Below are positions 1-39,719 of a stretch of 50,110 nucleotides of DNA, one piece after another. Position 1 is the stretch's first letter. Each line of letters opens with the position of its first letter. The translations under genes were made by a program, and so were the position numbers. The notes under the pieces were generated by a model. The model searched no databases, had not been told where the DNA came from, and worked only from the letters and a program-made list of their open reading frames with translations. The stretch covers positions 1-50,110 of the IMG/VR virus record IMGVR_UViG_3300001765_000072. One strand, 5' to 3'. The stretch is from a virus.

Positions 1-46
1 ATTTGGTACAGGGCCTTACTTAATCCTGTGGCTGTATCCGGTACCG
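1..46. repeat. Terminal direct repeat identical to 50065-50110 (assembly overlap of a circular or terminally redundant genome)
   Basis: Same 46-nt string atttggtacagggccttacttaatcctgtggctgtatccggtaccg at both window ends. Confidence 0.9.
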
Positions 47-4161: not shown

Positions 4162-4188
4162 TTTGTGTATTCTTTAGGGGTTAAAAAT

Positions 4189-5124
4189 TTAAACGAAGCG
4201 AATAAGGCCTGCCAGCTGCTGCTTCGCGATAACGCCGAAGCTGTAGGGACAAAGGGTTTCCTTAACAGTACCGCGTACTACTACGCTAACGCCGGTGTTT
4301 GCACCGGTAGGAGTATTACCGCAAATTACGCCGTTAACGGTGTATTTGGGTTGAAGGTCTGCAATAGGCACCCCACCGCTAAAGTAGTCGGACGCTATTG
4401 TTAATACGCCGCCTACAGCGGCGGCATCCCAGGTGCCGCCCGCGGTACAGGTAACCTGGGTAAGGTTAGCGGTTCCGGTTACGGTAAGGGCCCGAATAGC
4501 GGCCTGAATTAACGCGGCCGTGTTTTTATTCGCGGTCGTATTTGCCAGTCTGATAAGAAGTACGCCAGTAGTCGGCGTATAGGTAACGGCCAAACTGTCG
4601 CCTGAATTCGCGTTAATGGTTACAGTTTTACCGTTAAGGTTTCCGGTAGCATCGCTTAAGGTCAGCGTGGCTGCTACTATGTCTTCTACTACTGCTACCG
4701 AAGGCGTGGCTGCGGCTACGCTTTCGCTGGTTCCCTGGTAAAGTACTGCGCCGACTAATACCGGTTCCTTCGAATCCAGCGTAGCGGTCAGGGTCAGGGT
4801 GTCGTAACTGGCCTGGGTTGTATTAATACCGGTTATCTCGGTACTTACTTTCCCATTAGTGATAAAGTCGCCTACCTTGAAAAGGTGCGCTTTGGTTACC
4901 CTTACTGAAGTCGCGGCGGCTGCGGCCTGTGCCTGTAATAGCGCGGTTTTAGCTACGTGAACTAAACCGGCTTCCAGTCTTACAGGGGTGCCTTCCAAAA
5001 CTTCAGCCAGGGCTGTAGGAAGTTCGGCAGATACAATAGTACCGCCGCCTACAGCGAATTCCAGTACGTCCAGTATAACTACTGGGTACCGGCTGTCATT
5101 GGTTTTTGTAATTTGAATTCCCAT
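4189..5124 (-). CDS. Head decoration-like protein with inserted T/A/V-rich domain
   Basis: 311-aa ORF between scaffold and capsid gene (the lambda gpD position). Confidence 0.4.
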   Translation of the reverse strand: MGIQITKTNDSRYPVVILDVLEFAVGGGTIVSAELPTALAEVLEGTPVRLEAGLVHVAKTALLQAQAAAAATSVRVTKAHLFKVGDFITNGKVSTEITGINTTQASYDTLTLTATLDSKEPVLVGAVLYQGTSESVAAATPSVAVVEDIVAATLTLSDATGNLNGKTVTINANSGDSLAVTYTPTTGVLLIRLANTTANKNTAALIQAAIRALTVTGTANLTQVTCTAGGTWDAAAVGGVLTIASDYFSGGVPIADLQPKYTVNGVICGNTPTGANTGVSVVVRGTVKETLCPYSFGVIAKQQLAGLIRFV

Positions 5125-5147
5125 TTTTATTAAATGAATAGTGAATA

Positions 5148-5837
5148 TTAAAAATCTGTCGGTACGTTAAAACCGCTGGCAGTCGCTGACGCGGTGCCCC
5201 GGCTCTTAGCTACTTCGATTATAGCGGCATCGGCTACCTGTTCATTGCCTGGTTTTCCCTGGCCCGGCTTACCGCCTGCTGCCAGTATGGCGTTATTAAA
5301 TTCCTGTAGCTGTTCGTTAAAAACGCCTTCTACGCGGGCTACTTCTGCTTCTACCGTTGCTTCGCCTTCCAGGTTCATAAGGTCTACCAGTTTAGGGCTT
5401 AGTTTTTTGGCCGCCAGGGCTGCCAGGGCTGCTGCCTTCTTACCTTCCAGCGCGGCCTTCGCCTGCTGGCCGGTTATCAGGCCCTTAATTTCGCCCAGCA
5501 AAGGGCCTACTACCTTAAGAATTCGGGCTGTTTCAGGGTCAGGGTCTGCGGGGTCTGCCGGGTCGCCTGGTTCCGTTGTAACTTTCCCCTTCTTCAGAAG
5601 TAGGTTAATTCGCCTGTCGGTTTCGCTTTTCAGCGCGGCTTCGTGTGCTGCCTTTAACGTAGGGTCTGCCAGTACTTCGGCTAACGTCGTAGGCGCTTTG
5701 GGCGCCGCCGGCATAAGGGCCGCGAAGGCTGCTACGGCGCCGTCTACTTCTTCAGCAGTCGTAACCGTAATAAACTTCGCCAGGTCTTCGTTATAACCTG
5801 CTTTTTTTAGTGCTGCTTTAATCTGTTCGGTAAACAT
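5148..5837 (-). CDS. Scaffolding protein
   Basis: 229 aa, Ala/Lys/Glu-rich helical protein directly upstream of the capsid genes. Confidence 0.6.
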   Translation of the reverse strand: MFTEQIKAALKKAGYNEDLAKFITVTTAEEVDGAVAAFAALMPAAPKAPTTLAEVLADPTLKAAHEAALKSETDRRINLLLKKGKVTTEPGDPADPADPDPETARILKVVGPLLGEIKGLITGQQAKAALEGKKAAALAALAAKKLSPKLVDLMNLEGEATVEAEVARVEGVFNEQLQEFNNAILAAGGKPGQGKPGNEQVADAAIIEVAKSRGTASATASGFNVPTDF

Positions 5838-6286: not shown

Positions 6287-8404
6287 TTAAAGTTCTTCTA
6301 GTATAACGTCGTAAATATCAATATCATAATAATCAGGCCGTACTGTTCGCTTCGTAATAGATACTACCCTGAATTCGGTACCGTCAGCAAATAAAAACTC
6401 GTCTTCGTGTTTCAGCCCTACCGGCTTTACGCAGGTACTACTATGGCTGTTACGTATATACAGGTTTACGCTTACCGGCTGGCTGCTGTTCGCCCTGGCG
6501 AAGCTGTCGGCTACTTCCTTCTTAAAACTACTACTCATAAACCCGCTATCTATATGTACGCCAGTTTCGCCCCAGGCTTTCAGGTAGCGGCCTTCCATAC
6601 TTTCGCGCGTCGTTTTAAAGCCCCGGTACAGCTGGCCCTGGTACTTCGGCCCGGTCGCCAGGCCAGCGCGTATAAGGTTCGCGTAGTCGCCCATTTGTTC
6701 AGCCGTAAGCCGGTTCATACCGGCGCCGCCTGTACGTAGGTAGGTATTCAGGTTCGTATAGCCTGAACCGGTGTAATACGTAAACGCGCTTTTCATATCG
6801 GCAGTCATTTTATAACTCCACCACTCCGACAGGGTAAATGCTTCGTCAAAGTTCGTACTTACCGGCCAGCCGCCGGCCTGTACCATATGGTCAAAGTTCA
6901 TACCGGTAGCCTGTTCTACCTTCAGCTTAGCGGCTGCCAGCTTTTCGTTTAGGCCGACGGTTCCCATTTTATCTATGTACGCCTGCTGTTCCTGGGCCTT
7001 CTTCAGCTTTTCGGCCTTCTTAGCGGCCGCCTTCGCTTTCTTTTCGGCTGCCAGTTCCTTCTTTACCTGCTGTTCCCAGGCCAGTTTTTCAGCCTGGTAT
7101 TCGGCTTTCTTCTTTTCTTCGTTCGCCATCCATTTAGCTAGCGCGTCTTCTGAAGCCTTTTTACCGGCCGCGTATTCTGCCTGGGCCTTCTTCAGGTCTG
7201 CCGCTGCCTGGGCCGCCTTCTGTTCTGCCAGTACCTGGGCCTGGGCCGCCTTCTGTTTCGCGGCCAGTTCTTCTGCCAGGTTAGCGTACTGGCCCTTCGC
7301 CATCGGTATAGGCTTCGGTATATTCAGGCTAGCGGAACCGTAGTTAATCAGGCTAACGGCTACCGGGTTTATTAGCTTACTAGCCTGGCCCATAGCGTCG
7401 AAGTTCTGATTAAACCAGTAGGGCTTTTTAGCCATACCCTGTATTTTACCCAGCTTAGCGTTTAGGTAAACCTGGGCCTGCCGCGGTATGTCTTTAATGT
7501 ACTTATTTTCCTTAACATACCCGGCCTTCAGCGAAGCTATAAACTGGTCTTCCTTCAGTAGTATGTTTTCAGTCCAACAGATACAGCGCGGGTGCCAGCC
7601 TGGAAACCTGAAGCCTTTAGGGTATTCGCCGGCCATATAATCACAAATATCCTTCCGCGGGTGCGCTGCGCTTAAGTTTATCCGTACGCCAGTAACGAAG
7701 GGTATAGACTGCCGGCGCTGGTAGTCGCTTTCCCGGTATGCCATATTTATTTCGGTACCGGTCAGCCTTAAGGCGTTCTGAAAACTGCTACGGTATACGC
7801 CGCGGCCAGGGTGAAACGCTTTAGCGGCTTTACTTAGTTCCAGTTTCCCGGTTTCCTTATTTCGTACGCGTCGAAAAAGTTTATCAGGGTATTTTAGGTA
7901 CTGTTTGGTTTGGCTGGCTAGCTGCCTGGCTGGAAGGCCGGCGGCTATGCCTTCTGCTAGCGCTATTTCCAGCTGGGTTTTTGTTTTCGCGGTCAGGGCC
8001 CAAACCCTATCTGATAAATTCATACCGTCTACCTTCCGCTTTAAGAAGGTTTCCAGGGCTTCGCCGTTTCGGCCTAGCATTGCAGCGGCAATAGTCGGCG
8101 GTATATCCATACCGCGGGTATACTTCAGTACCAGCGCGTCGTTTGCCTGGTCTGCCAGGTTCCAGCCGACGTACGTACCCTGCTGTATCTTACTTACCAC
8201 TTCGTCGCCCATTACCCGCAGGCTTTCGTCTATCTGTTTTTCGAAGCCAGGGTTAACAGTCCATATACTTTGGGTCGCGCTTCCTTTAAGCTGGGCGCCG
8301 TAAACGATACCTTCTACTTTCGCCAGGTACTTATTCAGTTCCTTTTTCACCTGGCTAGCGTATGCCGCCTGGGCTTTCTGTAATTTTTCTTCGTACGGCG
8401 TCAT
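6287..8404 (-). CDS. Head morphogenesis protein (SPP1 gp7 / Mu F family) fused to an A/K/E coiled coil and a C-terminal R-S-E ADP-ribosyltransferase domain
   Basis: MuF signature GWHPRCICW. ART motifs YTGSGYTNLNTYLR, LYRG, GFMSSS (STS) and HEDEF (ExE, nt 6398-6406). Confidence 0.8.
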   Translation of the reverse strand: MTPYEEKLQKAQAAYASQVKKELNKYLAKVEGIVYGAQLKGSATQSIWTVNPGFEKQIDESLRVMGDEVVSKIQQGTYVGWNLADQANDALVLKYTRGMDIPPTIAAAMLGRNGEALETFLKRKVDGMNLSDRVWALTAKTKTQLEIALAEGIAAGLPARQLASQTKQYLKYPDKLFRRVRNKETGKLELSKAAKAFHPGRGVYRSSFQNALRLTGTEINMAYRESDYQRRQSIPFVTGVRINLSAAHPRKDICDYMAGEYPKGFRFPGWHPRCICWTENILLKEDQFIASLKAGYVKENKYIKDIPRQAQVYLNAKLGKIQGMAKKPYWFNQNFDAMGQASKLINPVAVSLINYGSASLNIPKPIPMAKGQYANLAEELAAKQKAAQAQVLAEQKAAQAAADLKKAQAEYAAGKKASEDALAKWMANEEKKKAEYQAEKLAWEQQVKKELAAEKKAKAAAKKAEKLKKAQEQQAYIDKMGTVGLNEKLAAAKLKVEQATGMNFDHMVQAGGWPVSTNFDEAFTLSEWWSYKMTADMKSAFTYYTGSGYTNLNTYLRTGGAGMNRLTAEQMGDYANLIRAGLATGPKYQGQLYRGFKTTRESMEGRYLKAWGETGVHIDSGFMSSSFKKEVADSFARANSSQPVSVNLYIRNSHSSTCVKPVGLKHEDEFLFADGTEFRVVSITKRTVRPDYYDIDIYDVILEEL

Positions 8405-9069: not shown

Positions 9070-10455
9070 TTAAATAGTAAAGCTTTCGCCCTTGCTGGCT
9101 TCTTCTTCTATTTCTTCCAGTTCGGCTATAGCGTCTTCTACCATCGGGTTTAACATTACGGCCGTTTTCTTACTCATAATACCAGCCTGTACGGCGCTTA
9201 CCAGGTTACTTATAACTTCGGTTTCGTCTATCGGTAGCGGTTCGTTATAGGCTACTTCTACCTTCAGCTGGCCCAGCGCCAGGGCTTTCTTAGCGTCGAA
9301 GAATGCTAACATTGCTTTTAAAACACTTATTCTGCGCGTCATACCGTCGTCGAACATATCGCGGTTAATTATGGCCTTTTGCGTCGCGCTCATAAATAAG
9401 AAGCGCATAGCTACGCCGCTAAGTTTCCCGGCTACGCCCTGCAATTTGTCAAAACTTAAATCCGGCGTGTCGCTTATACTATGTACGAATTCGCGCAGTA
9501 GTTCTATTTCCAGCTTGATAGCTTCCGGGGTCTGATCCCATGTAAGGTATTCGACGTCGCCCCAGGTGCCGCCGGTTCCCTGTTTCAGTTGAAACAATTT
9601 ACCTACTTCTTCCTTTTCAGGTGCGTTAATTATTTCGCCCCTTATTTTTACAGCCGGGCTGGCAAAGTAGTCGTTAGTATCATCAAATTTACTTAACCGG
9701 TCTTCCAGTTTTTCTATTAGGCCCTGTACGTCGTTCCAGTCAGGCGCCTGTATTTCGTAGTAAACTACCGGTATTTTCTTAAATGGGTTTACTTCCGTTT
9801 TCGTTACCCAGTCGGTACCTTCCAGGGTATTCGTTACCTTCTGTTCAGCGGTGTATATTTCCAGGGTATCTATTTTTACTTCGCTGCCGTCGTCATTAAC
9901 GTCTACCCTGGTAAACCGTCTAGTAAACGCGTCCATATCTCCCAGGTCGTCGAAATGCGGGTAAATGTAGTCGCCATTTTCCAGGCATAACAGCCGGGCC
10001 CTGGTTCTGTAGGCCGGGCCGCCTGGTAGCTTTTCGTTTTCCGGTATCGGCGCCTGGTAGAATAACGTAGCGGCCCTGGTTTCGATCAACAGCCGGCGGG
10101 CCAGGTTTTTGTTTATGGTATCTAGCTTCGCCTTATCCCATTCAGCTACTAGGTAGTCGTAGGCGTCGTTTAATGACTGTTCGGGCGCCAGGTTTTTCAT
10201 AACTAGCCTGGTACCGCCGCCGAATAAGAAAAATACGCTACTGTTAACGATTTTCTTCTGAAGCTTCAATACCAGCTTAGCCTGCGGTATTTCGCGCCTG
10301 TTGTTTTCGGGCCCTGCTATCTTAGGGGCTCTGTTTAAAATCTTATGTTCGCCGTCGTATTCTTTTACCGCGTTTAAAATGGTATCAGGGTAAGCCTTCG
10401 TTAAAATCTTAATTTGATTTTCAACAGGAAGGGTTAAAATATCTGCTATTAACAT
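9070..10455 (-). CDS. Portal protein
   Basis: 461 aa with an acidic C-terminus, immediately downstream of TerL and upstream of the MuF-type protein. Confidence 0.75.
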   Translation of the reverse strand: MLIADILTLPVENQIKILTKAYPDTILNAVKEYDGEHKILNRAPKIAGPENNRREIPQAKLVLKLQKKIVNSSVFFLFGGGTRLVMKNLAPEQSLNDAYDYLVAEWDKAKLDTINKNLARRLLIETRAATLFYQAPIPENEKLPGGPAYRTRARLLCLENGDYIYPHFDDLGDMDAFTRRFTRVDVNDDGSEVKIDTLEIYTAEQKVTNTLEGTDWVTKTEVNPFKKIPVVYYEIQAPDWNDVQGLIEKLEDRLSKFDDTNDYFASPAVKIRGEIINAPEKEEVGKLFQLKQGTGGTWGDVEYLTWDQTPEAIKLEIELLREFVHSISDTPDLSFDKLQGVAGKLSGVAMRFLFMSATQKAIINRDMFDDGMTRRISVLKAMLAFFDAKKALALGQLKVEVAYNEPLPIDETEVISNLVSAVQAGIMSKKTAVMLNPMVEDAIAELEEIEEEASKGESFTI

Positions 10456-10482: not shown

Positions 10483-11970
10483 TTAGAAAAAACCGTATTC
10501 TGCTTTAGTCTTTTTAACAACAGAAGGCGAAGGCCATACCGGCCAAAAACTTAAGGCCAGGCTATCTGCTTTGTCAGGGCTACAGCCCAGGCGCTTTTTT
10601 ATTTCGTCTTTAGGTTCTATTTGTATTTTCCCGGTACTGTTAAAAAAGTACTTCGGTTCTATAATCTGCGCCGCTAGTTCGTCGTCAGGCGGTAACATAG
10701 CGCCGGTTTCATTGGCCGGGTTTAACCAGTCGCGCAGGGCCCAGTAGCAATACGCCCGCAGGTTTATAAATTCCAGCTGGCCAGTTTGATCTTTGGGCGC
10801 GTCGCCCTGGCTAAATTTAGCGCTTACAGCCCATTCTACGCCCTGTTCGTACAGCCTAGAGTATACGCCAGCCCCTTCGCCTATCGTATCAATAAAGGCC
10901 GGCCCCTGGTTCCTGGTTACCCATTCCTTCAGCCAGCCAGCGGTCGCCATATGTACGCCGGCGTTCAGCGCGGCCAGTTCCGTTAAGTCCGGTACGTATT
11001 CGCCCTGGCGTTCGCAGATTATCGTACGGTCGCGGCCCATACCTGCAATATCGGCGCCCAGGCATTTTTTCCCGGTCAACAGGTACGGCGCCTTATGGAA
11101 GGCTAGCCAGCGCTGCTGCGCCATTTCTACCCAGCGCAGCGGTATTAACTTACTGGCTTCTTCGCGCGGAAATTCGCCCATTACCTTTATCAAAAAAATA
11201 TCATTAGGCCGGTAGTAGGCACCGTTCCAAACAAAATCATATTCTAGCGGGTTATAAACTTCTTCGCTTATCCTGGTAGTCCAGCCCGGCATTTTTACCC
11301 TTTCGTCTACCCAGTTAAAGTCTACCTGTCCTGGGTAAATAATCTTATTAGCCACTACGTTAGGCGCCTTTAAACTGTTCATATGGAATTTAACGTACTG
11401 CGGGCTGGTTTGGCTTTTATAAATTTCACCGCTGCGCTGGTTAGGATTAAATACCAGTACCAGGCGGCTATTACCCTGCAAAATACCTTCTACGGCGTTA
11501 AAAGTTGCCTGGTTTAAACCGCTGGCTTCTGTCATAACTACCATAATATTAGGGCTGTGAAACCCAGACCAGGCTTCGGTATTTTTGTCTTCAGCCTTAA
11601 ATCCAATTAAATAATGGTTTTTTTCCTTAAACCGGATACCGTTATCTAACATTCTACCGCCTACTGGAAAACGTGCATTCCTGTAAAGCCTGTCTATTTC
11701 AGGCATCATAATAAGCTTAACCTGCCTGTCAGTAGGGGCCGTATTTATAACCTTTGCCGGCCAGTTCAGGTATAAAAAGGCGTGGCCTGCTACGGCGGCC
11801 AGGAAGTCTTTACCCCGGCTAGTGCCACTACGTACGCTTACCCTTCGGTTAACCTGTATAGCCTTCAGTATGGCCTGTTGTTCGCTATCCAGGGTTACCC
11901 CTAGCGCTTCTGTAGCGTATAGGTTCCAGTCGCTACGCCATAGCCTTACGCGGTTAGTAATTTCGTTCAT
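10483..11970 (-). CDS. terL: Terminase large subunit
   Basis: Walker A-like SGTSRGKD and Walker B-like IMVVMTEAS. RNaseH-like nuclease motifs LGADIAGMGRDRT, IDTIGEGAGV and SPDKADSLALSF. Confidence 0.85.
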   Translation of the reverse strand: MNEITNRVRLWRSDWNLYATEALGVTLDSEQQAILKAIQVNRRVSVRSGTSRGKDFLAAVAGHAFLYLNWPAKVINTAPTDRQVKLIMMPEIDRLYRNARFPVGGRMLDNGIRFKEKNHYLIGFKAEDKNTEAWSGFHSPNIMVVMTEASGLNQATFNAVEGILQGNSRLVLVFNPNQRSGEIYKSQTSPQYVKFHMNSLKAPNVVANKIIYPGQVDFNWVDERVKMPGWTTRISEEVYNPLEYDFVWNGAYYRPNDIFLIKVMGEFPREEASKLIPLRWVEMAQQRWLAFHKAPYLLTGKKCLGADIAGMGRDRTIICERQGEYVPDLTELAALNAGVHMATAGWLKEWVTRNQGPAFIDTIGEGAGVYSRLYEQGVEWAVSAKFSQGDAPKDQTGQLEFINLRAYCYWALRDWLNPANETGAMLPPDDELAAQIIEPKYFFNSTGKIQIEPKDEIKKRLGCSPDKADSLALSFWPVWPSPSVVKKTKAEYGFF

Positions 11971-13413: not shown

Positions 13414-14316
13414 TTATAGGTTGTTTTTTATAAATGGAATTTTTCTAAATATATGCTTTATTACTTCAGTATTCCAGCCATTACCTACCATTATGTAGCG
13501 CTGCTGCGAAGAAGCGCCAGCGGTGTAGTTATCCGGTAAACTTTGCAGGCGTTCGCATTCTAGCGGGCTTAGTTTACGGTAGCCTATTTTTTCGCCTTGC
13601 TGCGCTTTGTATTTCGGGCTAACCGGGGCGCTTCCTTCGGGAAAATGTAGCACACCGTTACCGGCAGCCGTTACCCCTGAAGGTTCCATTACCAGTAAGC
13701 CTGTTTTATTCCGTTTTATCATACTCTTAGCGTTTTCTTTATAAAGGGTCGCTAAGATAGTTTGGCTTTTATCGCGTAAGGCTAGCCCTGATTCTAGTAC
13801 GTCCTGAAGCCTTACGAACTTGTTACCCGGCTGCTTTATCGGTAAATTAGTCCAAAACAATCGTTTCCTACTTTGACCTGATACCCGGCTAGCATCAATT
13901 TCAACAGGTATAACGCCTAGCGTCTTATTTATAACCGCTTCTATACTCTTAGGCATTTTTACATTTTCTAGCATCCAGTAAGTAGGGTTTACCTGCTCTT
14001 TTATCCTTACGAATTCAAAAAACAGCTTACTACGCGGGTCTTCAAAGTTTAAACCATTACCGGCTATACTAAAACCCTGGCAGGGTGAGCCACCTATCAA
14101 TAAATCTACAGGCCCTAATTTACTGGCGTCTAGTTTCGTTACGTCGCCCAGTTGTACGGTAGCGGGAAAATGCTTTTTAACAACATCCATAGAATGTTTA
14201 TGTATTTCGCTAGCGTAGTAAAGGTAATTCGTTAGCCCTAGCTGCTGAAGGGCTAGCTGGCCGGTACTTATACCGTCGAATGAAGACAATACAGTTATTT
14301 GCTTTTCGTTTTTCAT
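13414..14316 (-). CDS. DNA (cytosine-5)-methyltransferase, orphan
   Basis: Motifs SFDGISTG (I), GGSPCQGFS (IV), MLENVK (VI), QSRKRLF (VIII) and GNGW (X). No adjacent endonuclease. Confidence 0.85.
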   Translation of the reverse strand: MKNEKQITVLSSFDGISTGQLALQQLGLTNYLYYASEIHKHSMDVVKKHFPATVQLGDVTKLDASKLGPVDLLIGGSPCQGFSIAGNGLNFEDPRSKLFFEFVRIKEQVNPTYWMLENVKMPKSIEAVINKTLGVIPVEIDASRVSGQSRKRLFWTNLPIKQPGNKFVRLQDVLESGLALRDKSQTILATLYKENAKSMIKRNKTGLLVMEPSGVTAAGNGVLHFPEGSAPVSPKYKAQQGEKIGYRKLSPLECERLQSLPDNYTAGASSQQRYIMVGNGWNTEVIKHIFRKIPFIKNNL

Positions 14317-14649: not shown

Positions 14650-15279
14650 TTAGGTTTGGGTATTTTCTTCCAGGGCCTGGGCTTCCTTCGCTTCCTTCTG
14701 CGAAAGTTCCATAACATACTGGTAAAGGGTCATATTCCCGGCCGCTGCTTCGGGCTTTTCTAGGCCCAGCAGCCTAGCGCGCTTTTCTATACACCATTGC
14801 ACCCCTTCCAGGTACCGCGGGTCGCCGTTTCCTACTTCTATGGTAGTCTTAGTACGTCTAAGCCTTACCGGAACAGCGGCGGCCGCTTCTGCCTTGCAGG
14901 TACTTTCAGGTTTCGGTAAAAGTTCGGCCTGGTCTACAGGTGTATATTCCGTTTTACGCTTCGGGCTTTTACTTCGTTCCCAGGCGTTCCAGTATTCGAA
15001 TTCTAGTAGGTTTATCTTACCTAGTTCTAAGCTTAACTGGTCACTTATTAGCGCTTCGTTTTCGCGTTTATACCGGGCCAGTTCCTTCTGAATGTCGTTA
15101 TGTACCTGTATTCTACCTATCGAGTAATTACGGCCTTCTTCCTGGGCCCGCTGGTTTATCTGCCTGGTTATTTCGGTTACCGATATACCCTTAAGAAATA
15201 GAAGCCAGGCGTAACCGCGGTCGCTGGTTATATTACCAGGCGTTCGTTTGCTTACGCCCCTTTCGTCGTTAGCTACCAT
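14650..15279 (-). CDS. Terminase small subunit candidate (HTH protein)
   Basis: N-terminal HTH-like ISVTEITRQINQ and C-terminal RARLLGLEKPE, typical of many TerS. It is the first gene after a promoter-like box. Confidence 0.4.
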   Translation of the reverse strand: MVANDERGVSKRTPGNITSDRGYAWLLFLKGISVTEITRQINQRAQEEGRNYSIGRIQVHNDIQKELARYKRENEALISDQLSLELGKINLLEFEYWNAWERSKSPKRKTEYTPVDQAELLPKPESTCKAEAAAAVPVRLRRTKTTIEVGNGDPRYLEGVQWCIEKRARLLGLEKPEAAAGNMTLYQYVMELSQKEAKEAQALEENTQT

Positions 15280-15334: not shown

Positions 15335-15520
15335 CTAACTTTTGCGAATAAATGCAAAAGTACCAGGGGCTGGATAAAACCGGCCCCTGGTCTTTTTAAT
15401 CTTACGCGGGGCCATTACTTCGGCCAGGCGTTTTAGGTCGCTTTCCTGTTTACGGTATACTTTCCAGGTTTCAGTTAACAGCCTGAAAAATAAACTTATA
15501 ACGGTTTTAAATAGTTTCAT
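15335..15520 (-). CDS. Hypothetical small protein
   Basis: 61-aa ORF with ATGA coupling to the upstream gene. It reads through the hairpin, so it is uncertain. Confidence 0.35.
   Translation of the reverse strand: MKLFKTVISLFFRLLTETWKVYRKQESDLKRLAEVMAPRKIKKTRGRFYPAPGTFAFIRKS
15363..15390. terminator. GC-rich hairpin (terminator-like, but inside the 3' end of ORF 15335-15520)
   Basis: CCAGGGGC-12 nt-GCCCCTGG with T-rich flanks on both strands. Confidence 0.3.
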
Positions 15521-16366: not shown

Positions 16367-16777
16367 CTATTTTAGGTTTAAATTGTCGCAGGCTTCCTGG
16401 CAGGTTTCGCGCAGTTTGTAAAAACCTTCATAGGTACGCTTGAAGTTAACGGCCTTAAGCTTCTGCGGCTTCCAGGTACCGCATCTAAAAGGCTCGTAAA
16501 CGTCGTCGCTATCGAAAACAGTATAGCCGTCGCGCGTCTTCCTGGGCTGCTGTATTTTATCCCGTATTACCCGGCCCGGTTCCTGGGCCGGTACCATTAC
16601 CAGCGGCGGCGGCGGGTCGCTGGTTCCCAGGGCGCAGCCTTTAGCGGCTTCTGTCGCCCTGGCCCTGTTTTCACTTTCGTAGCTTATACTGTCGAAGACA
16701 ATAAACCCGCAATATTCACATACTACGGTTAACCTTTTGTCAGGGCCTGCGCTGGCTGTAAATTTGTGTCGTTTCAT
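16367..16777 (-). CDS. Zn-ribbon protein, paralog B
   Basis: N-terminus MKRHKFTASAGPDKRLTVVCEYCGFIVFD...AAKGCA aligns with the N-terminus of 16777-17331. Confidence 0.55.
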   Translation of the reverse strand: MKRHKFTASAGPDKRLTVVCEYCGFIVFDSISYESENRARATEAAKGCALGTSDPPPPLVMVPAQEPGRVIRDKIQQPRKTRDGYTVFDSDDVYEPFRCGTWKPQKLKAVNFKRTYEGFYKLRETCQEACDNLNLK

Positions 16778-17331
16778 TATAATAAATCTTCGCGTTTTAA
16801 ATCTAGTACTGCGCTTTCCGCGTTTAATCGGTTTACGTAAAAACCGTATAGGTAATTTGCATTCCTAGCGTAGCTTCTTAAAACTATTTCATATCCATTT
16901 TCGCCCTTTTCAGGTGCAAAAATATCCTGGCCCACTTCTACGCCTTCGCCTATGGTATCGAAGTATTTATACGTCGGCTTCTTACCTGGCTTACCAGGCC
17001 CAGGGGTCGCAGGTAGGGGCCGCGTCTTATTTTCGCCAGGTACCAGGTCGCCAGCGTATATTTTTTCGCCCGCGTTAAAAAATTCCTTCAGCTTATCAGT
17101 ACCAGGTATAGGGTTCGGCGTATACTGGAAGTTCTCTAGCGGGTTAATACTTTCCAGGGTCGCCGGTACCAGGTAACCTTCGTTACAGGCGCAGCCTTTA
17201 CTGGCTTCGGCCTGAAGTACCAGGTTTTCGTCTATAGTTAGCCCATTATCGTAGGCTACCAGGCCGCAAAATTCGCAGAAGACTACTACGGTATCGTAGC
17301 CGCCGCCGCTGTTAAATTTGTGTGCTTTCAT
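16777..17331 (-). CDS. Zn-ribbon protein, paralog A
   Basis: N-terminus MKAHKFNSGGGYDTVVVFCEFCGLVAYD...ASKGCAC followed by a Pro/Gly-rich linker. Shares 1-nt overlaps (TGATG/TAATG) with both neighbours. Confidence 0.55.
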   Translation of the reverse strand: MKAHKFNSGGGYDTVVVFCEFCGLVAYDNGLTIDENLVLQAEASKGCACNEGYLVPATLESINPLENFQYTPNPIPGTDKLKEFFNAGEKIYAGDLVPGENKTRPLPATPGPGKPGKKPTYKYFDTIGEGVEVGQDIFAPEKGENGYEIVLRSYARNANYLYGFYVNRLNAESAVLDLKREDLL

Positions 17332-18125
17332 CAGTTTTTCGTTATGCTTAGTTTGTCAATTTTCCATATTAGAGGTTCCGCTTTCGGGCCATTAACTATA
17401 AGGGTTACCCGAATCCTGTAAGTAAATCCCAGGTTTAACTTCGAAACCATTACCAGGCGGCCGTTTAAATAGCGCCGGGCTTCAGTATTCGTTACGAAAA
17501 GGTCTACCTGCGCTGGCCCGCGGGGCGCCGCGTACAATTCCACTATTCGCGCTAGCCTGTTTTCATAATTCGGCCCGGCGTAATGGTCAGCAAACCATAG
17601 CCTGGGCCGGTTCCATAATTCAGGGATTATTTCCTGGGCTCCGGTTTCGAAAAGGTCTATTTCCCTGGTACTATCCTGGCCGGCTTCTTCGTTTAGCAGC
17701 CATACGCTGGGTAAAATATCCCTACGGTATGGGTACTGGCATTTTACTTGAATATGAAAAGGCGGGCTGTATACGGTATCGCTTTCCAGGCCGCCGGTAC
17801 TGTGATAAAAGGGGTGTATAGGCAAACCATAGGTAACCTGTTCCCTGGTTACCCAGTCTACGTAAATAGGTGTTTCTAGCGGCCAGGTACGAAGTTCCAG
17901 CTGTTCGCCGGTTACGGTATAGGAAGTATCTGTATAAATACCATAGTCACCGGCGTAAAGGCCCAGGGTGCGCCATTTAATCGGGCTGGTAAAAGGTGCA
18001 ATTTCCAGCCGTGGCCCGAAGCCATAAACCCGGTAGTACTTACCGGGCTGCTGGGTTAATTTCAAAGGGTTACAGGCGGCCAGTAGAAGTACTACCAGCA
18101 GGGCCAGGGTTTTCATTTTTTTCAT
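17331..18125 (-). CDS. GH16-like (concanavalin-fold) lipoprotein
   Basis: Lipoprotein signal MKKMKTLALLVVLLLAAC. GH16 catalytic motif EIDLFE (ExDxxE, nt 17646-17663) preceded by LPSVWLL. Confidence 0.65.
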   Translation of the reverse strand: MKKMKTLALLVVLLLAACNPLKLTQQPGKYYRVYGFGPRLEIAPFTSPIKWRTLGLYAGDYGIYTDTSYTVTGEQLELRTWPLETPIYVDWVTREQVTYGLPIHPFYHSTGGLESDTVYSPPFHIQVKCQYPYRRDILPSVWLLNEEAGQDSTREIDLFETGAQEIIPELWNRPRLWFADHYAGPNYENRLARIVELYAAPRGPAQVDLFVTNTEARRYLNGRLVMVSKLNLGFTYRIRVTLIVNGPKAEPLIWKIDKLSITKN

Positions 18126-18360
18126 TATCTACTATTTTTATTTTAGGTAATAGGTTTCTTACCAGGTACTTATTTATCTGTAGCAAAGTAGGCGCCGGCC
18201 CGGTTTTTCGGCCGGTTACTTGTAGCCTTACCGCTTCGGTGTTTCGCATTACTTCAAACCGGGTACTGGTCATAAAACGCGTACATTTTTGGCCCTTCTG
18301 TACGCGTATTTTCGCCGCCTGGGCCTTATCTTCTACGAAATAAAACTTTCCTTTTTTCAT
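18070..18360 (-). CDS. Hypothetical basic protein
   Basis: 96-aa ORF; a 46-56 nt overlap with the lipoprotein gene leaves its 3' end uncertain. Confidence 0.4.
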   Translation of the reverse strand: MKKGKFYFVEDKAQAAKIRVQKGQKCTRFMTSTRFEVMRNTEAVRLQVTGRKTGPAPTLLQINKYLVRNLLPKIKIVDNEKNENPGPAGSTSTGRL

Positions 18361-18527
18361 ATTCCCAGGGTGCCCTGTGGCGTCTTCTGCTGTTCCAGGG
18401 TAATTAACAGGCGGTCTACTATCTGTTCCTGGGCCTTGCTTTTTCTTAGCGTTTCCTGGCTGCGGCTTCGGAAGTATTCTTTTTGCAGGCGTCGCATTTC
18501 TTTTACTGCTTCTATTAGTTCCTTCAT
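18357..18527 (-). CDS. Hypothetical helical mini-protein (56 aa, not in the track)
   Basis: MKELIEAVKEMRRLQKEYFRSRSQETLRKSKAQEQIVDRLL...; ATGA overlaps at both ends. Confidence 0.4.
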   Translation of the reverse strand: MKELIEAVKEMRRLQKEYFRSRSQETLRKSKAQEQIVDRLLITLEQQKTPQGTLGI

Positions 18528-19180
18528 AATTGTATTATTAACTGTGATTTATGTGTATTAAACCGCTGTAAGGCGTCCTGATAGTATTCAGTATCAATTT
18601 CACACCAATCTAAAGAAAAACCTAGATTGTGGCAGGCTATACATATCGAACCACTACCGCCGTGTGTATCTAGTATTTTGTCGCCGGGTTTGGCGTAATT
18701 GTTTAAAATCCAGTGGTATAAATCAACAGGCTTTTCCGTCGGATGAATTCTGTTTATTTGATGCTTTTTCTTAAATCCAGCCCATAAGTAATTGAACATA
18801 TTACACTTAATATCGAAAGAAGACCAAGCTAGTTCAGCCATTGATAAATGTTCTTTAATGTCTGCTTCTTTATTCCATACTATCCAACCGCTTTTAGGTT
18901 TTAGATATTCCGTAAAATAATTCCCACCCCATATAATTTGGTTTTTAGATACTCTAAATAGTTCATTAAAATAGGATTTATCAGGTATTTTACTATCGTC
19001 GAACGTTTTATAATGACGGCTTAATGGGTTTTTCCATTTTACTGTGGGTCTATCACCTGTTGCATTCCTTTGGCCATTTTCACCTATTCCATACTGGGGG
19101 TCAACTATTGCCAGATCATAAAATTTATTTGGCTTGTCCTTCATAAATTCCATACAGTCAGTATTCAGCATATTTATCAT
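18524..19180 (-). CDS. DNA amino-methyltransferase (N6-adenine or N4-cytosine), beta class, orphan
   Basis: DPQYGIG (DPPY-like motif IV) lies N-terminal to HPTEKP and LDTHGGSGS (motif I). Confidence 0.8.
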   Translation of the reverse strand: MINMLNTDCMEFMKDKPNKFYDLAIVDPQYGIGENGQRNATGDRPTVKWKNPLSRHYKTFDDSKIPDKSYFNELFRVSKNQIIWGGNYFTEYLKPKSGWIVWNKEADIKEHLSMAELAWSSFDIKCNMFNYLWAGFKKKHQINRIHPTEKPVDLYHWILNNYAKPGDKILDTHGGSGSICIACHNLGFSLDWCEIDTEYYQDALQRFNTHKSQLIIQL

Positions 19181-34253: not shown

Positions 34254-34554
34254 ATTTTTTCCTTTCGTTATATATCTCAATATCCTGAAGGGTTAACTGG
34301 TACTTCAGTTCCAGGGCTACCTTACCCATTTCGTCAGCCTGGCGCTTGTAGTGCGCGGCGCTGTCTGCCATTGCTTTAGTATTAGCGTTAAGACTATCGG
34401 CCTGTACCTGGTAGTCTACCGCGGCTGTTTTTACCTGTTTGGATTGAACGTAAATATATACGCCCATACCTATAACCAATAACAGAAGGAAGGCGTTAAC
34501 GTATACGCCCAGCTTTTCCGTAAAGGTCTTCGACTCTTTTAATTGTATTTGCAT
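34168..34554 (-). CDS. N-terminal-TM coiled-coil protein (i-spanin-like architecture)
   Basis: One TM (VNAFLLLLVIGMGVYIYV) followed by a helical region; lies downstream of the endolysin. Confidence 0.45.
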   Translation of the reverse strand: MQIQLKESKTFTEKLGVYVNAFLLLLVIGMGVYIYVQSKQVKTAAVDYQVQADSLNANTKAMADSAAHYKRQADEMGKVALELKYQLTLQDIEIYNERKKYEKASNRIKLLSADSTYAVFSEFTRSNR

Positions 34555-35113
34555 ATGCTTTAACCATTTGTTGTTTTCCGCTGGCGCTTAACATTAGCCG
34601 GCAGTCCTTCGGGTTATCCATAAAAAAATTCTCCAACAGCAGGGCCGGGCATTTCGTTTTCGGCAGTATAGAAAAGGCGTCGCTTTCTTTATCCGCGTCG
34701 CCGTCGAAAAAATCGGTACGCATTTTTTCACCTGGAAACGCTAGGCTGAATTCCGTAAAGAAAAAAGGTACTAGTTTATCGCTGGCCGTTTCGCCCTTCG
34801 AAGTCCAAATTTCCCAGCCAGTACCGCCGCCGGCGTTACCGTGGAAGCTTAACAATATACAGGGTTCCGCTTTGGCTAGCCGGTTAACGCGTATAATCCT
34901 TTCGGTTATACTTATGTCTTCCTGTTCCGGTACCAGTATGGTATATTTAACGCCCATGGTTTTAAGTTCCAGGCCCAAAAGGTAAACTACCTGCCTGTTA
35001 AAAACGCCTTCAAATAACTGCGGTAAATCAGGCCATACAGGCGAACGCTTACCAGGTGTTACGTATACCCCATTAACTAGGCCGCCGTGGCCGTTGTCTA
35101 GTATCCAGTTCAT
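34496..35113 (-). CDS. N-acetylmuramoyl-L-alanine amidase (Amidase_3) endolysin
   Basis: LDNGHGG...GKRSP, ERIIRVN and LLSFHGNAGGGTGWEIW match Amidase_3 Zn-ligand regions. Confidence 0.8.
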   Translation of the reverse strand: MNWILDNGHGGLVNGVYVTPGKRSPVWPDLPQLFEGVFNRQVVYLLGLELKTMGVKYTILVPEQEDISITERIIRVNRLAKAEPCILLSFHGNAGGGTGWEIWTSKGETASDKLVPFFFTEFSLAFPGEKMRTDFFDGDADKESDAFSILPKTKCPALLLENFFMDNPKDCRLMLSASGKQQMVKAYANTIKRVEDLYGKAGRIR

Positions 35114-37563: not shown

Positions 37564-37567
37564 ATTT

Positions 37568-38365
37568 TTAAGTATGCGCCATCCAGTCAGGCGAAGGGTT
37601 AAAATAAATTTCGTCGGCTGTTATTGCCTGGCCCAGTATCCTTATAACCGCGCTGGCTGTTGTCGGCTGTGCTACCACTATTAGCCCGGCAGTTTCAGAA
37701 GCATAATAAGGGGCGCCTATTGTCATAGTCGTAAATTTAGCGTCCGCGCGAATAGTGCCTATTAATAACATTTTCGTAGCGCTACCATTAGCGGCCGCTG
37801 CTAAAACACACATACCCAGCAAACCCCTGGTATCGCCGTCGTTTCCGGCCGCCGCGTTCGGGTTTGTTTTTTCCCACCTGCTATCTGTAGGGTCTAGGTA
37901 ACAAAGGTCGCCGAAGGCCAGGGCCGCCCCAGCTGTTCCGGTTCTACAGATACCGCAGTACTTACCGTCGGCGCTTAGTGCCGAATCTAAATCTATACTG
38001 GTATTTTCTCCAAGCGTTATATTACCGGTTAAAGTACCGCCCGCGAAAGTCATATAAAGGGTATCGAAGTAGCTTTTTAAGGTAGCCTTTAGGTTCGCCC
38101 AGGTAAGTTTTTTCTTCGCGTTACTGGCCGCGCTATCTTCTATTATAGTTACGTCGGCGTCTACCGGCGTGGCCTTATCGGTTAGCCCGGATATTTGCCC
38201 GGTTTTACCTGTCGCCATTATATTACTTCCACTAATCGCCGCGGGTGTCGCGAACTTACCCGCTTCCGTTCCGGTATTAATTTCGGCAGCCGTGGCATTT
38301 GCTACCACTTCGTCGAAGGAAGCGCCGGCGTTTTCCCGGTGTACTTTTATGTCGTTTAAAGCCAT
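37568..38365 (-). CDS. Tail fibre protein
   Basis: KKKLTWANLKATLKSYFDTLY...GGTLTGNITL is typical of phage fibre shafts. Confidence 0.55.
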   Translation of the reverse strand: MALNDIKVHRENAGASFDEVVANATAAEINTGTEAGKFATPAAISGSNIMATGKTGQISGLTDKATPVDADVTIIEDSAASNAKKKLTWANLKATLKSYFDTLYMTFAGGTLTGNITLGENTSIDLDSALSADGKYCGICRTGTAGAALAFGDLCYLDPTDSRWEKTNPNAAAGNDGDTRGLLGMCVLAAAANGSATKMLLIGTIRADAKFTTMTIGAPYYASETAGLIVVAQPTTASAVIRILGQAITADEIYFNPSPDWMAHT

Positions 38366-38381
38366 AAGTCTGAAATGTTAA

Positions 38382-38405: not shown

Positions 38406-38420
38406 GTAATAAAAGAGTTT

Positions 38421-39707: not shown

Positions 39708-39719
39708 TTTTTTAAAATA

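What the first reader, a model, noticed from the sequence alone, without database searches (positions are those of the whole stretch)
17331..18125. Phage-encoded GH16-like lipoprotein expressed from the early/accessory region
The 264-aa product starts with a textbook lipoprotein signal (LALLVVLLLAAC). It contains the GH16 catalytic signature ExDxxE as EIDLFE (17646-17663), preceded by the conserved hydrophobic LPSVWLL strand. Its size also matches a single GH16 (laminarinase/agarase/beta-glucanase) domain. It sits among early genes, not in the tail or lysis modules. It is therefore unlikely to be a virion depolymerase or an endolysin. Possible roles are remodelling of host surface glycan (superinfection exclusion or release), or an auxiliary metabolic function in polysaccharide use, as is typical of Bacteroidota.
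Basis: partly seen in the sequence, partly recalled or inferred. Interest (0 to 1): 0.65.

Follow-up and report, generated by a model that had tools for sequence, protein, structure and literature searches.

The report
Divergent phage GH16-fold lipoprotein glycanase
A complete phage genome, probably of a Bacteroidota host, carries a real gene for a lipid-anchored sugar-cutting enzyme of the well-known GH16 type; it belongs to a small, very divergent, phage-only branch that standard databases miss, and its target sugar and its purpose are still unknown.

Summary
Window 17331-18125 (minus strand) is a 264-aa ORF with a signal peptide and lipobox (LAAC, Cys18) and the motif EIDLFE (E155/D157/E160) at 17646-17663.

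The GH16 reading is supported by three lines of evidence:
- An AlphaFold model (pLDDT 87) whose 50 best PDB matches are all GH16 enzymes (E about 3e-11).
- A profile of the homologues that hits GH16 structures by sequence (2vy0, E 2e-8) and places ExDxxE on the laminarinase EIDIME.
- hhalign probability of 98% to a Pfam-positive cellular GH16.

W142, E155, D157 and E160 are the only invariant columns across 30 homologues. Pfam and PHROGs do not detect the protein directly.

The family is tiny: 24 clusters among 1.84 billion proteins. It was found only on phage-like contigs, always among small replication or accessory genes, with no conserved neighbour.

In this phage the gene lies about 17 kb from the amidase endolysin and outside the tail module. 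It is the only predicted lipoprotein on the coding strand.

It lacks the acidic Bacteroidota surface-export signal, and most distant relatives have no signal peptide. Both points argue against a nutrient-harvesting role.

The best reading is an active periplasm-facing endo-beta-glycanase that acts on a host envelope glycan. Substrate and role are inferred, not shown. I classify it as a new member of a known kind, of moderate interest.

The parts
17331..18125 (-). Gene for the 264-aa GH16-fold lipoprotein (P0001). The mature protein is predicted to be Cys18-Asn264.
   Evidence: ORF. Homologues. AF2 model with pLDDT 87. The top 50 Foldseek PDB hits are all GH16.
18072..18125 (-). Signal peptide with lipobox (residues 1-18): n-region MKKMK, h-region TLALLVVLLLAA, lipobox L-A-A-C with Cys18 as the predicted lipidated residue.
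   Evidence: Meets the PROSITE PS51257 rule, as do 8 of the 10 closest homologues. It is the only match on the coding strand of the window. Weak Pfam LPAM_1 hit, E 0.069.
18048..18071 (-). Residues +2 to +9 after the lipidated Cys (NPLKLTQQ). There is no acidic cluster, so no Bacteroidota lipoprotein export signal.
   Evidence: Sequence. Export-signal rule from PMC5080379.
17694..17714 (-). Strand LPSVWLL (residues 138-144). W142 is invariant and aligns to the Trp of P-A-F-W-M-L in GH16 laminarinases (the -1 subsite aromatic platform).
   Evidence: Invariant in 30 sequences. Alignments to 2vy0, 4dfs and 3azx and to the cellular GH16 P0029.
17646..17663 (-). Catalytic strand E155-I-D157-L-F-E160 (beta-bulge type ExDxxE). 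Predicted roles: E155 nucleophile, D157 helper, E160 acid/base.
   Evidence: Invariant in 30 homologues. Lies in the predicted strand 153-164. Aligned to EIDIME of 2vy0 and to EVDLLE of P0029.
17583..17585 (-). His181 on the strand next to the catalytic strand. It aligns with the conserved His of GH16 subfamilies that carry ExDxxE.
   Evidence: Invariant in the 10 close homologues, and H or N in distant ones. Aligned to the H of GTVH in 2vy0. Feature described in PMC6827312.
17329..17333 (-). TGATG overlap: the stop codon of the GH16 gene overlaps the start codon of the downstream 184-aa CxxC ORF (16777-17331), which suggests translational coupling.
   Evidence: Sequence.
15362..15391 (-). Context: a 12-bp-stem hairpin. 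On the minus strand it is followed by a T-rich tract and a TAAATTTG element about 45 nt upstream of the small-terminase-like gene (14650-15279). This is a likely boundary between the block holding the GH16 gene and the packaging/structural operon.
   Evidence: Its function as a terminator and promoter is inferred.
34496..35113 (-). Context: the phage's own endolysin (Amidase_3, phrog_435), about 17 kb from the GH16 gene.

Best explanation
The gene encodes an exported, lipid-anchored endo-beta-glycanase with the GH16 beta-jelly-roll fold.

Mechanism, step by step:
- The pre-protein enters the Sec pathway through its N-terminal signal peptide. Cys18 is lipidated, and signal peptidase II cleaves before it. 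This follows from a rule-based sequence match and is otherwise inferred.
- There is no acidic export signal after Cys18. In a Bacteroidota host the enzyme should therefore stay on the periplasmic side of the envelope, tethered by a short flexible linker (inferred).
- The catalytic domain presents E155 (nucleophile), D157 and E160 (acid/base) on one beta-strand, with W142 as the sugar platform and H181 alongside. It should cleave a beta-linked glycan by the retaining double-displacement mechanism of GH16. Fold, homology and residue conservation are shown here. Activity is inferred.

Biology: it is a self-contained accessory (moron-like) gene that moves between unrelated phages. It sits at the end of the replication/accessory block, just before the packaging genes.

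Most likely role (inferred, about 0.35 on its own): it cuts a polysaccharide of the host's own envelope, such as nascent capsule, EPS or O-antigen-like polymer passing through the periplasm. That would edit the surface of the infected cell, excluding other phages or keeping progeny from sticking to the cell and its debris. A role in harvesting nutrient polysaccharide is less likely.
For: Fold: AF2 pLDDT 87, pTM 0.82. All top 50 Foldseek PDB hits are GH16 (laminarinases, carrageenases, agarases, porphyranases, lichenases), with E down to 2.8e-11 and TM about 0.6. The best viral-library hits are chlorovirus, pithovirus and phage GH16/laminarinase-like proteins.

Homology by sequence:
- The 28-sequence profile of the phage family, with Pfam-positive members removed, hits 2vy0 at E 2.2e-8, kappa-carrageenase at 6e-6, and further GH16 chains.
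- hhalign against the cellular Pfam-GH16 protein P0029 gives probability 98%, E 2.6e-13.

Active site: W142, E155, D157 and E160 are the only invariant columns in 30 sequences that go down to 17% identity. The motif aligns on EIDIME of 2vy0.

Lipoprotein: PS51257 rule met; 8 of the 10 closest homologues also meet it.

Periplasmic topology: there are no two consecutive acidic residues at +2 to +6 in any lipoprotein member, against the rule in PMC5080379.

Accessory-gene behaviour:
- Every context examined is phage-like, among small ORFs next to replication or nucleotide-metabolism genes: DnaB, RNA ligase, RNR, ThyX-like, ERF, MazG.
- No neighbouring gene is shared between loci.
- The gene's GC is typical of the genome.

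Not lysis or tail.

Phage-restricted: no relative was found in 185,579 species genomes with the two motif patterns used. Only one cellular protein appears among the 24 hits in 1.84 billion representatives.
Against: - No enzymatic, localisation or expression data exist.
- Pfam PF00722 and PHROGs do not detect the protein itself. The profile of the 10 closest homologues alone found no GH16 structure.
- Identity to solved GH16 enzymes is only 10-16%, so substrate specificity cannot be read off.
- The host phylum is inferred indirectly. If the host is not Bacteroidota, the export-signal argument does not apply.
- 19 of the 30 aligned sequences (29 phage-family members plus the cellular GH16 P0029) have no signal peptide. 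The family as a whole therefore cannot share a periplasmic mode of action before lysis. This fits a release-time depolymerase about as well.
- No host envelope glycan is known for this phage.
Confidence: 0.45

Rival explanations
1. Release or dispersal depolymerase. The enzyme degrades extracellular matrix, capsule or an outer envelope glycan at or after lysis, so that progeny escape and diffuse. Signal-less relatives would be freed by lysis, and the lipoprotein forms would be pre-positioned in the envelope.
For: The family mixes signal-less members (19 of the 30 aligned sequences) with Sec-exported members, as lysis enzymes do. In one relative (L009) the gene lies about 1.7 kb from a Peptidase_M15 endolysin. 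The catalytic triad is invariant.
Against: - In the window the gene is about 17 kb from the amidase endolysin and its neighbours.
- In most loci it sits among replication or nucleotide-metabolism genes.
- A membrane-tethered, periplasm-facing enzyme is poorly placed to clear extracellular matrix.
- A soil-virome survey found that GH16 genes are not enriched next to holins or spanins: 3/10, against 85-90% for endolysin families.
Confidence: 0.25
2. Auxiliary metabolic gene. A laminarinase-type enzyme helps the infected Bacteroidota cell degrade environmental beta-glucan, like the surface GH16 lipoproteins of polysaccharide utilisation loci.
For: - The best structural matches are laminarinases, and they include the Bacteroides ovatus mixed-linkage-glucan PUL enzyme 5nbo/7kr6.
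- The host is probably Bacteroidota.
- Viral GH16 genes are widely annotated as carbon-cycling AMGs.
Against: - There is no acidic surface-export signal after the lipidated Cys in any member, so the enzyme is not predicted to reach the cell surface.
- No SusC/SusD or other PUL genes lie nearby.
- The family is phage-restricted and far from cellular GH16, unlike recently captured host genes.
- Most relatives lack any signal peptide.
Confidence: 0.15
3. Non-catalytic lipoprotein that uses the jelly-roll as a binding module. It would block a receptor or transporter, as T5 Llp or Cor do, for superinfection exclusion, or act as a pseudo-glucanase.
For: Phage lipoproteins in early regions are typically exclusion factors. 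There is a weak PHROG hit of the signal region to Cor, E 0.46. Catalytically dead GH16 folds exist (4wzf Rv0315, listed).
Against: E155, D157, E160 and W142 are the only invariant positions across 30 very divergent homologues, which is the signature of retained catalysis. The PHROG hits cover only residues 1-25.
Confidence: 0.07
4. Chance motif in an unrelated beta-sandwich protein; not GH16 at all.
For: ExDxxE alone occurs in 3.5% of shuffles and in four other proteins of the window. There is no direct Pfam hit.
Against: Foldseek, profile-versus-PDB and hhalign results all converge on GH16, with the motif aligned on the catalytic residues.
Confidence: 0.03

Closest known systems
GH16 laminarinases (endo-beta-1,3-glucanases, subfamily GH16_3), e.g. 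Pyrococcus furiosus LamA (2vy0), Thermotoga maritima (3azx), Zobellia galactanivorans LamA (4bq1)
   Same: Beta-jelly-roll fold of about 250 aa. Beta-bulge catalytic strand ExDxxE (EIDLFE versus EIDIME). Trp platform in the preceding xxFW/VWLL strand. His on the neighbouring strand. WY(V/L)(D/N)G strand. These are the best structural and profile matches.
   Different: Only 13-16% identity. Below the Pfam PF00722 threshold. The conserved S-x-R of the YTSxR strand is T-G-G here. P0001 and P0002 share a 5-6 residue insertion right after the acid/base residue. Substrate is unknown. The gene is phage-encoded.
Bacteroides ovatus BoGH16MLG (5nbo, 7kr6), the GH16 endo-glucanase of the mixed-linkage-glucan PUL; that it is a surface lipoprotein is from my own knowledge
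   Same: GH16 catalytic domain preceded by a lipoprotein signal in a Bacteroidota setting. Good structural match (ranks 16 and 22).
   Different: The PUL enzymes are surface-exposed and work with SusC/SusD. The phage protein has no acidic export signal and no PUL partners. BoGH16MLG is detected by standard GH16 models, and the phage protein is not.
PBCV-1 A94L beta-1,3-glucanase, the only biochemically characterised viral GH16 as of the 2019 GH16 roadmap (PMC6827312)
   Same: A virus-encoded GH16 that is not a virion component (PMC8145301) and whose biological role is unclear. Chlorovirus-type accessions are among the best viral structural matches. My own recollection, not verified here, is that A94L is expressed early.
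   Different: It comes from a virus of a eukaryotic alga, has no lipoprotein anchor, and is recognisable as GH16 close to GH16_3. There is no detectable direct sequence relationship to the phage family.
Metagenomic phage GH16 / 'laminarinase-like' proteins annotated as AMGs (e.g. A0A8S5N0Z9, A0A8S5SMD8; 133 GH16 genes in the Global Soil Virus Atlas)
   Same: Phage-encoded GH16-fold proteins that are not associated with lysis cassettes.
   Different: Those proteins are found by standard CAZy/Pfam models. This family is missed by them and forms a separate clade of about 28 clusters seen only on phage contigs.
Phage exclusion lipoproteins (T5 Llp, phi80/N15 Cor); functional analogy only, from my own knowledge
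   Same: Phage-encoded lipoproteins made from non-structural regions and acting in the host envelope.
   Different: They are small, non-enzymatic receptor blockers. There is no homology: the PHROG Cor hit has E 0.46 and covers the signal peptide only.

Membership tests
Glycoside hydrolase family 16 (clan GH-B) | Beta-jelly-roll (ConA-like) fold of about 200-300 aa | tested here: met
   AF2 model with pLDDT 87, nearly all-beta. The top 50 PDB matches are all GH16, probability 1.00, TM 0.52-0.63.
Glycoside hydrolase family 16 (clan GH-B) | Catalytic ExDxxE (or ExDxE) motif on one beta-strand of the cleft | tested here: met
   E155-I-D157-L-F-E160 lies in the predicted strand 153-164. It is invariant in 30 homologues. 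It aligns to EIDIME of 2vy0, 4dfs and 3azx and to EVDLLE of the Pfam-positive P0029. Side-chain geometry and the beta-bulge were not inspected because no coordinates were accessible.
Glycoside hydrolase family 16 (clan GH-B) | Statistically significant sequence similarity to established members | tested here: met
   Met at profile level only. The family profile without Pfam-positive members versus PDB gives 2vy0 E 2.2e-8 and 1dyp 6e-6. hhalign to P0029 gives 98%, E 2.6e-13. The single sequence versus PDB gives only E 0.2, and the 10-sequence profile gives no GH16 hit.
Glycoside hydrolase family 16 (clan GH-B) | Detection by the curated family model (Pfam PF00722 at gathering score). This is an operational criterion, not a biological one. 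| tested here: not met
   No PF00722 hit for P0001 even at E<=10. Of the 30 aligned sequences only 3 match at E<=1. The only hit above the cutoff that I saw individually is the cellular outgroup P0029 (8e-17); P0026 is sub-threshold (E 0.028) and I did not identify the third. dbCAN/CAZy subfamily assignment was not available.
Glycoside hydrolase family 16 (clan GH-B) | [quoted passage not shown] | tested here: met
   W142 is invariant and aligns to the W of AFWML. H181 aligns to the conserved His. This is alignment-level evidence only.
Glycoside hydrolase family 16 (clan GH-B) | Retaining hydrolysis or transglycosylation of a beta-glycosidic bond | not testable with these tools
   Needs an enzyme assay.
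Bacterial lipoprotein (signal peptidase II substrate) | Basic n-region, hydrophobic h-region, and lipobox [LVI][ASTVI][GAS]C with Cys at positions 15-35 (PROSITE PS51257) | tested here: met
   MKKMK / TLALLVVLLLAA / L-A-A-C18. The rule is met with either Met1 or Met4 as the start. 8 of 10 close homologues also meet it. It is the only match on the coding strand.
Bacterial lipoprotein (signal peptidase II substrate) | Lipid modification and globomycin-sensitive cleavage | not testable with these tools
   Experimental.
Bacteroidota surface-exposed lipoprotein (SusG/BoGH16-like) | Lipoprotein export signal: a polar or basic residue followed by at least 2 acidic residues within +2 to +6 of the Cys (PMC5080379) | tested here: not met
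   The +2 to +9 sequence is NPLKLTQQ. None of the 8 lipoprotein homologues has two consecutive acidic residues there.
Phage lysis cassette component (endolysin or spanin) | Adjacent to holin, endolysin or spanin genes; peptidoglycan-hydrolase or spanin architecture | tested here: not met
   The endolysin (Amidase_3) is at 34496-35113, about 17 kb away. The PHROG Rz-like hit has E 0.034 and covers the signal region only. The sequence ends ...LIWKIDKLSITKN, with no hydrophobic C-terminal stretch as a u-spanin would have.
Virion-associated depolymerase (tail spike or fibre) | Encoded in the tail module, with a virion-attachment domain, usually a large trimeric beta-helix | tested here: not met
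   The tail module is at 36.3-49.9 kb. The protein is a single 247-aa jelly-roll with a Sec/lipoprotein signal.
Auxiliary metabolic gene recently captured from the host | Close cellular homologues | tested here: not met
   No relative was found in 185,579 species genomes with the two motif patterns used. Only one cellular protein, at E 6.6e-6, appears among the 24 hits in 1.84 billion representatives.

The most novel reading that the evidence does not exclude
These proteins are a phage-specific clade of GH16-fold enzymes used as a receptor-destroying or glycan-editing device from inside the cell. The lipoprotein form sits in the periplasm of the infected cell and cleaves nascent surface polysaccharide (capsule, EPS or O-antigen-like polymer). 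This would strip the phage receptor or barrier from the infected cell and its debris. It would be an enzymatic form of superinfection exclusion or progeny protection that I do not know to have been described for phages.
Probability: 0.15. Interest if true: 0.7.

Novelty: new member of a known kind. Interest (0 to 1): 0.4.

Why it matters
If the enzyme is active, it defines a GH16 branch that current CAZyme and Pfam models miss and that appears confined to phages. Surveys of viral carbohydrate-active genes would therefore undercount this class.

Its placement raises a testable question about why phages of Bacteroidota-like hosts make a glycanase before or during replication. It is in the accessory region, it has a lipoprotein anchor without a surface-export signal, and it has signal-less relatives. 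These features point away from the usual 'nutrient AMG' label.

The candidate answers are surface-glycan editing, exclusion of competing phages, and release of progeny. Each would be new biology for this enzyme family, but none is shown here.

Tried and rejected
- Direct searches with the single protein were negative or insignificant. Pfam gave only LPAM_1 at E 0.069. PHROGs gave signal-peptide-only hits to Rz-like spanin and Cor. PDB phmmer gave 2vy0 at E 0.2 with the motif misaligned.
- The profile of the 10 closest homologues against PDB gave only spurious hits: farnesyltransferase alpha at E 0.024 and Rv0793 at 0.03. GH16 appeared only after distant family members from the exhaustive representative search were added.
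- tblastn of the protein against 50,697 GenBank phage records found no match.
- The search for related loci with the wide alignment failed because no conserved stretch was available. With the close alignment it found one IMG/VR locus and nothing in genome contigs.
- A genome-contig scan with the portal protein, meant to find prophage relatives and a host, found nothing. The window has no tRNAs.
- A search for a conserved partner gene around the homologues found none.
- The sigma-70 promoter scan was at background level. The combined Bacteroidota motif TTTG-N17-23-TAnnTTTG was also at chance level (2 found, 1.7 expected).
- The cluster look-up gave no names or taxonomy.
- A literature search for 'A94L' plus 'glucanase' found nothing in the library.
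- A u-spanin reading was rejected, because there is no C-terminal transmembrane segment. A pseudo-enzyme reading was rejected, because the catalytic triad is invariant.
Full report
**1. The observation**

Window 17331-18125 holds a 264-aa ORF on the minus strand with an ATG start.
- LALLVVLLLAAC is residues 7-18.
- LPSVWLL is residues 138-144.
- EIDLFE is residues 155-160, which maps to 17646-17663.

The N-terminus satisfies the PROSITE PS51257 lipoprotein rule with Cys18. Across every possible start codon of ORFs of at least 30 aa on the coding strand, this gene is the only match to that rule.

The bare pattern E.D..E is not significant. It occurs in 3.5% of shuffles of this protein and in four other proteins of the window. 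The weight of the finding therefore rests on homology and conservation, not on the motif alone.

**2. It has the GH16 fold and descends from GH16**

The single sequence is invisible to standard models.
- Pfam finds no glycosidase family.
- PHROGs match only the signal peptide.
- PDB phmmer gives 2vy0 at E 0.2.

The word-indexed search found nine homologues at 41-55% identity, none with a Pfam domain. Their profile alone still did not reach GH16 structures.

An exhaustive HMMER search of 1.84 billion cluster representatives with that profile found only 24 proteins at E<=1e-3. The family is therefore small. Three independent lines then converge on GH16.

(a) Structure. An AlphaFold2 model (pLDDT 87, pTM 0.82, almost all beta-strand) has as its 50 best PDB matches only GH16 enzymes. 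These are laminarinases, kappa- and beta-carrageenases, agarases, porphyranases, lichenases and a mucin O-glycanase, with E down to 2.8e-11, probability 1.00 and TM about 0.6. In the viral structure library the best matches are chlorovirus-type, pithovirus and phage proteins named GH16 or laminarinase-like.

(b) Profile versus PDB. I built a 28-sequence profile of the family after removing P0029 and P0026, the two Pfam-positive members I had identified individually. It hits P. furiosus endo-beta-1,3-glucanase 2vy0 at E 2.2e-8, kappa-carrageenase 1dyp at 6e-6, and a series of other GH16 chains.

(c) Profile versus a canonical GH16. hhalign between that profile and P0029 gives 98% probability, E 2.6e-13. 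P0029 is a cellular protein that matches Pfam PF00722 at 8e-17 and sits next to ribosomal protein genes.

**3. The active site is conserved**

The 30-sequence alignment goes down to 17% identity. Its only invariant columns are W142, E155, D157 and E160. Each sequence has exactly one ExDxxE, at the aligned position.

The HMM alignments place several elements on known GH16 features:
- E-x-D-x-x-E falls on EIDIME of 2vy0, 4dfs and 3azx.
- xSVWLL falls on PAFWML.
- ADH falls on the conserved His of the neighbouring strand.
- WYLNG falls on WYVDG.

These are the features the GH16 subfamily roadmap lists for the beta-bulge (ExDxxE) half of the family: a Trp platform at subsite -1 and a His beside the catalytic strand (PMC6827312). 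The motif lies inside the predicted strand 153-164.

I could not inspect coordinates, so side-chain geometry is not verified. The natural reading is a catalytically competent retaining endo-glycanase or transglycosylase, with E155 as nucleophile and E160 as acid/base.

Specificity cannot be assigned. Identity to any solved enzyme is 10-16%. The laminarinase S-x-R strand reads T-G-G here. P0001 and P0002 carry a private 5-6 residue insertion just after E160.

**4. Export and topology**

The n-region is MKKMK, the h-region is TLALLVVLLLAA, and the lipobox is L-A-A-C18. Eight of the ten closest homologues and the IMG/VR relative have an equivalent signal and Cys. P0008 starts at a position that aligns just after the Cys of its relatives and comes from a 903-nt contig, so it is probably truncated.

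In Bacteroidota, surface exposure of lipoproteins needs a polar or basic residue followed by at least two acidic residues within +2 to +6 of the Cys (PMC5080379). Here +2 to +9 is NPLKLTQQ, and no lipoprotein member of the family has two consecutive acidic residues there. If the host is a Bacteroidota, the enzyme is predicted to stay periplasm-facing. This is an inference from a published rule, not a measurement.

More distant members (P0011-P0026, P0028, P0031) have no signal peptide. Where checked, there is no upstream in-frame room for one.

**5. The genome and the host**

The window has a 46-bp terminal direct repeat, so it is a complete, circularly assembled genome of about 50.06 kb. All genes are on the minus strand. 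Read in the direction of transcription, the order is as follows.
- Small-terminase-like gene: 14650-15279
- DNA methyltransferase: 13414-14316
- Large terminase: 10483-11970
- Portal: 9070-10455
- Head morphogenesis: 6287-8404
- Scaffold and capsid: 3100-5837
- Head-tail genes, then (wrapping around the circle) tape measure: 46707-49949
- Tail proteins: 36292-46720
- Lysis region with an Amidase_3 endolysin: 34496-35113
- Replication/recombination block: about 21.3-31.6 kb
- Accessory stretch: 15.5-21.3 kb. It holds an HNH protein, an ASCH protein, a second methyltransferase (18524-19180), the GH16-like gene and small ORFs.

The gene is therefore about 17 kb from the endolysin and outside the tail module. 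It lies at the distal end of the replication/accessory block.

A 12-bp-stem hairpin at 15362-15391 sits between this block and the small-terminase-like gene. On the coding strand it is followed by a T-rich tract and a TAAATTTG element. It is a plausible terminator-promoter boundary before the late operon, but this is inferred. Timing of expression is not shown.

The host is inferred from two observations. Only 1 of 58 genes has a Shine-Dalgarno-like motif, and upstream regions are A-rich. The closest cultured relatives of the portal and capsid proteins are Riemerella, Bacteroides, Cellulophaga and Porphyromonas phages, at 28-35% identity. Both point to Bacteroidota. No prophage relative or tRNA gave a direct link.

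**6. Distribution of the family**

Every context retrieved is phage-like. The gene sits among runs of small ORFs next to replication or nucleotide-metabolism genes.
- L001: RNA ligase/PNKP, an adenylosuccinate-synthetase-like gene and MazG, on a 105-kb contig.
- L002: DnaB, RNA ligase and a dATP/dGTP pyrophosphohydrolase.
- L004 and L005: a faint ThyX match.
- L006: ribonucleotide reductase.
- L008: ERF recombinase.
- L009: DUF551 and many small ORFs, with an M15 endolysin 1.7 kb away on the other strand.
- L012: an RNase H-like gene.
- L003: a methyltransferase, then a 598-aa ORF that I did not identify (possibly a terminase).

An all-against-all BLAST of the neighbourhoods found no other gene shared with the window, except a methyltransferase fragment. 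The GH16-like gene thus behaves as a self-contained accessory gene exchanged between otherwise unrelated phages. Its GC content (0.49) is typical for this genome (0.467 +/- 0.038).

No close relative was found in 185,579 species genomes with the two motif patterns used, nor in 50,697 GenBank phage records.

**7. What it most likely does**

Shown: fold, homology, conserved catalytic residues, a lipoprotein-type signal, position in the genome, and phage-restricted distribution.

Inferred: activity, periplasmic topology, time of expression, substrate and role.

I put the probabilities as follows.
- GH16 descent: about 0.9.
- Retained catalysis: about 0.8.
- Lipoprotein: about 0.75.

Three roles remain for the biology.

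(i) Editing of a host envelope glycan from the periplasm, for example cleavage of nascent capsule, EPS or O-antigen-like polymer. This would exclude other phages or keep progeny from readsorbing to the cell and its debris. It fits the exported-but-not-surface topology and the non-lysis, non-tail position.

(ii) A release or dispersal depolymerase. This fits the mix of signal-less and exported members, a pattern familiar from lysis enzymes, but fits the genomic position less well.

(iii) A nutrient-harvesting AMG. This fits least, for four reasons: there is no export signal to the surface, there are no PUL partners, the clade is phage-restricted and deeply divergent rather than a recent host capture, and most relatives lack any signal peptide.

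A soil-virome survey also found that viral GH16 genes are not associated with lysis cassettes. A non-catalytic blocker is unlikely, because the catalytic residues are the only invariant positions.

**8. Comparison with what is known**

By fold and active site it works like a GH16 laminarinase-type enzyme. Membership of GH16 is supported at profile and structure level, but the curated Pfam model does not detect it. CAZy/dbCAN assignment could not be run. It would probably be an unclassified or new subfamily on the ExDxxE side.

Phage and giant-virus GH16 proteins are already known as annotations. As of the 2019 GH16 roadmap, the only characterised viral GH16 was PBCV-1 A94L, which is not packaged in virions.

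GH16 lipoproteins are standard in Bacteroidota PULs. What is new here is the divergent phage-only clade and its combination with a lipoprotein anchor that lacks a surface-export signal.

**9. Verdict**

This is a new, divergent member of a known enzyme kind in a moderately unusual setting. The function is plausible but untested. Interest is 0.4.

The most novel reading not excluded is an enzymatic, periplasm-based receptor-destroying or exclusion device. I give it about 0.15.

Noticed in passing
window 1-46 and 50065-50110: A 46-bp terminal direct repeat shows that the window is a complete, circularly assembled phage genome of about 50.06 kb. All 58 called genes are on the minus strand.
   Followed up: partly
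window 18070-18360 (-): A 96-aa ORF lies immediately upstream of the GH16 gene and overlaps its first 56 nt. It shares 39% identity over 49 aa (pairwise E 3e-8) with an internal segment (residues 204-252) of the phage's own major capsid protein at 3100-4161. It has no Pfam or PHROG hit. Its meaning is unknown.
   Followed up: partly
window 16777-17331 (-) and 16367-16777 (-): Two tandem paralogous ORFs lie directly downstream. The first is coupled to the GH16 gene by a TGATG stop/start overlap. They share a 49-aa N-terminal CxxC-containing domain (43% identity, E 1e-11) and have no family match. They are not conserved next to the GH16 homologues elsewhere.
   Followed up: partly
window 18524-19180 (-): This DNA methyltransferase gene has GC 0.346, against a genome mean of 0.467 (sd 0.038), which suggests recent acquisition. 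A second methyltransferase lies at 13414-14316.
   Followed up: no
window 15362-15391: A strong 12-bp-stem hairpin is followed on the coding strand by a T-rich tract and a TAAATTTG element upstream of the small-terminase-like gene. It is a possible boundary between the early/middle unit and the late transcription unit.
   Followed up: partly
whole window, coding strand: No other ORF with a lipobox exists on the coding strand, so no recognisable o-spanin or u-spanin is present. The GH16-like protein is the phage's only predicted lipoprotein.
   Followed up: partly
window 6287-8404 (-): This 705-aa head-morphogenesis (SPP1 gp7 / Mu F-like) protein also matches the PHROG annotated as Bxa ADP-ribosyltransferase at E 1e-54. 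It may be a capsid-delivered toxin or effector fusion.
   Followed up: no
L001 4964-6151 and 9846-10175; L002 6385-7149: Phage contigs carrying GH16-like homologues also encode an adenylosuccinate-synthetase-like protein (PF00709) with MazG, or a dATP/dGTP pyrophosphohydrolase (PF04447). These are marker genes of 2-aminoadenine (Z-base) DNA phages.
   Followed up: no
L009 11379-12735: The relative's contig carries a reverse transcriptase (RVT_1) next to a 973-aa Laminin_G_3 protein. This looks like a diversity-generating retroelement.
   Followed up: no
window 14650-15279 (-): The gene just upstream of the packaging module, probably the small terminase by position, matches only a PHROG labelled 'RNase E' (E 8e-10). 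The label looks unreliable.
   Followed up: no
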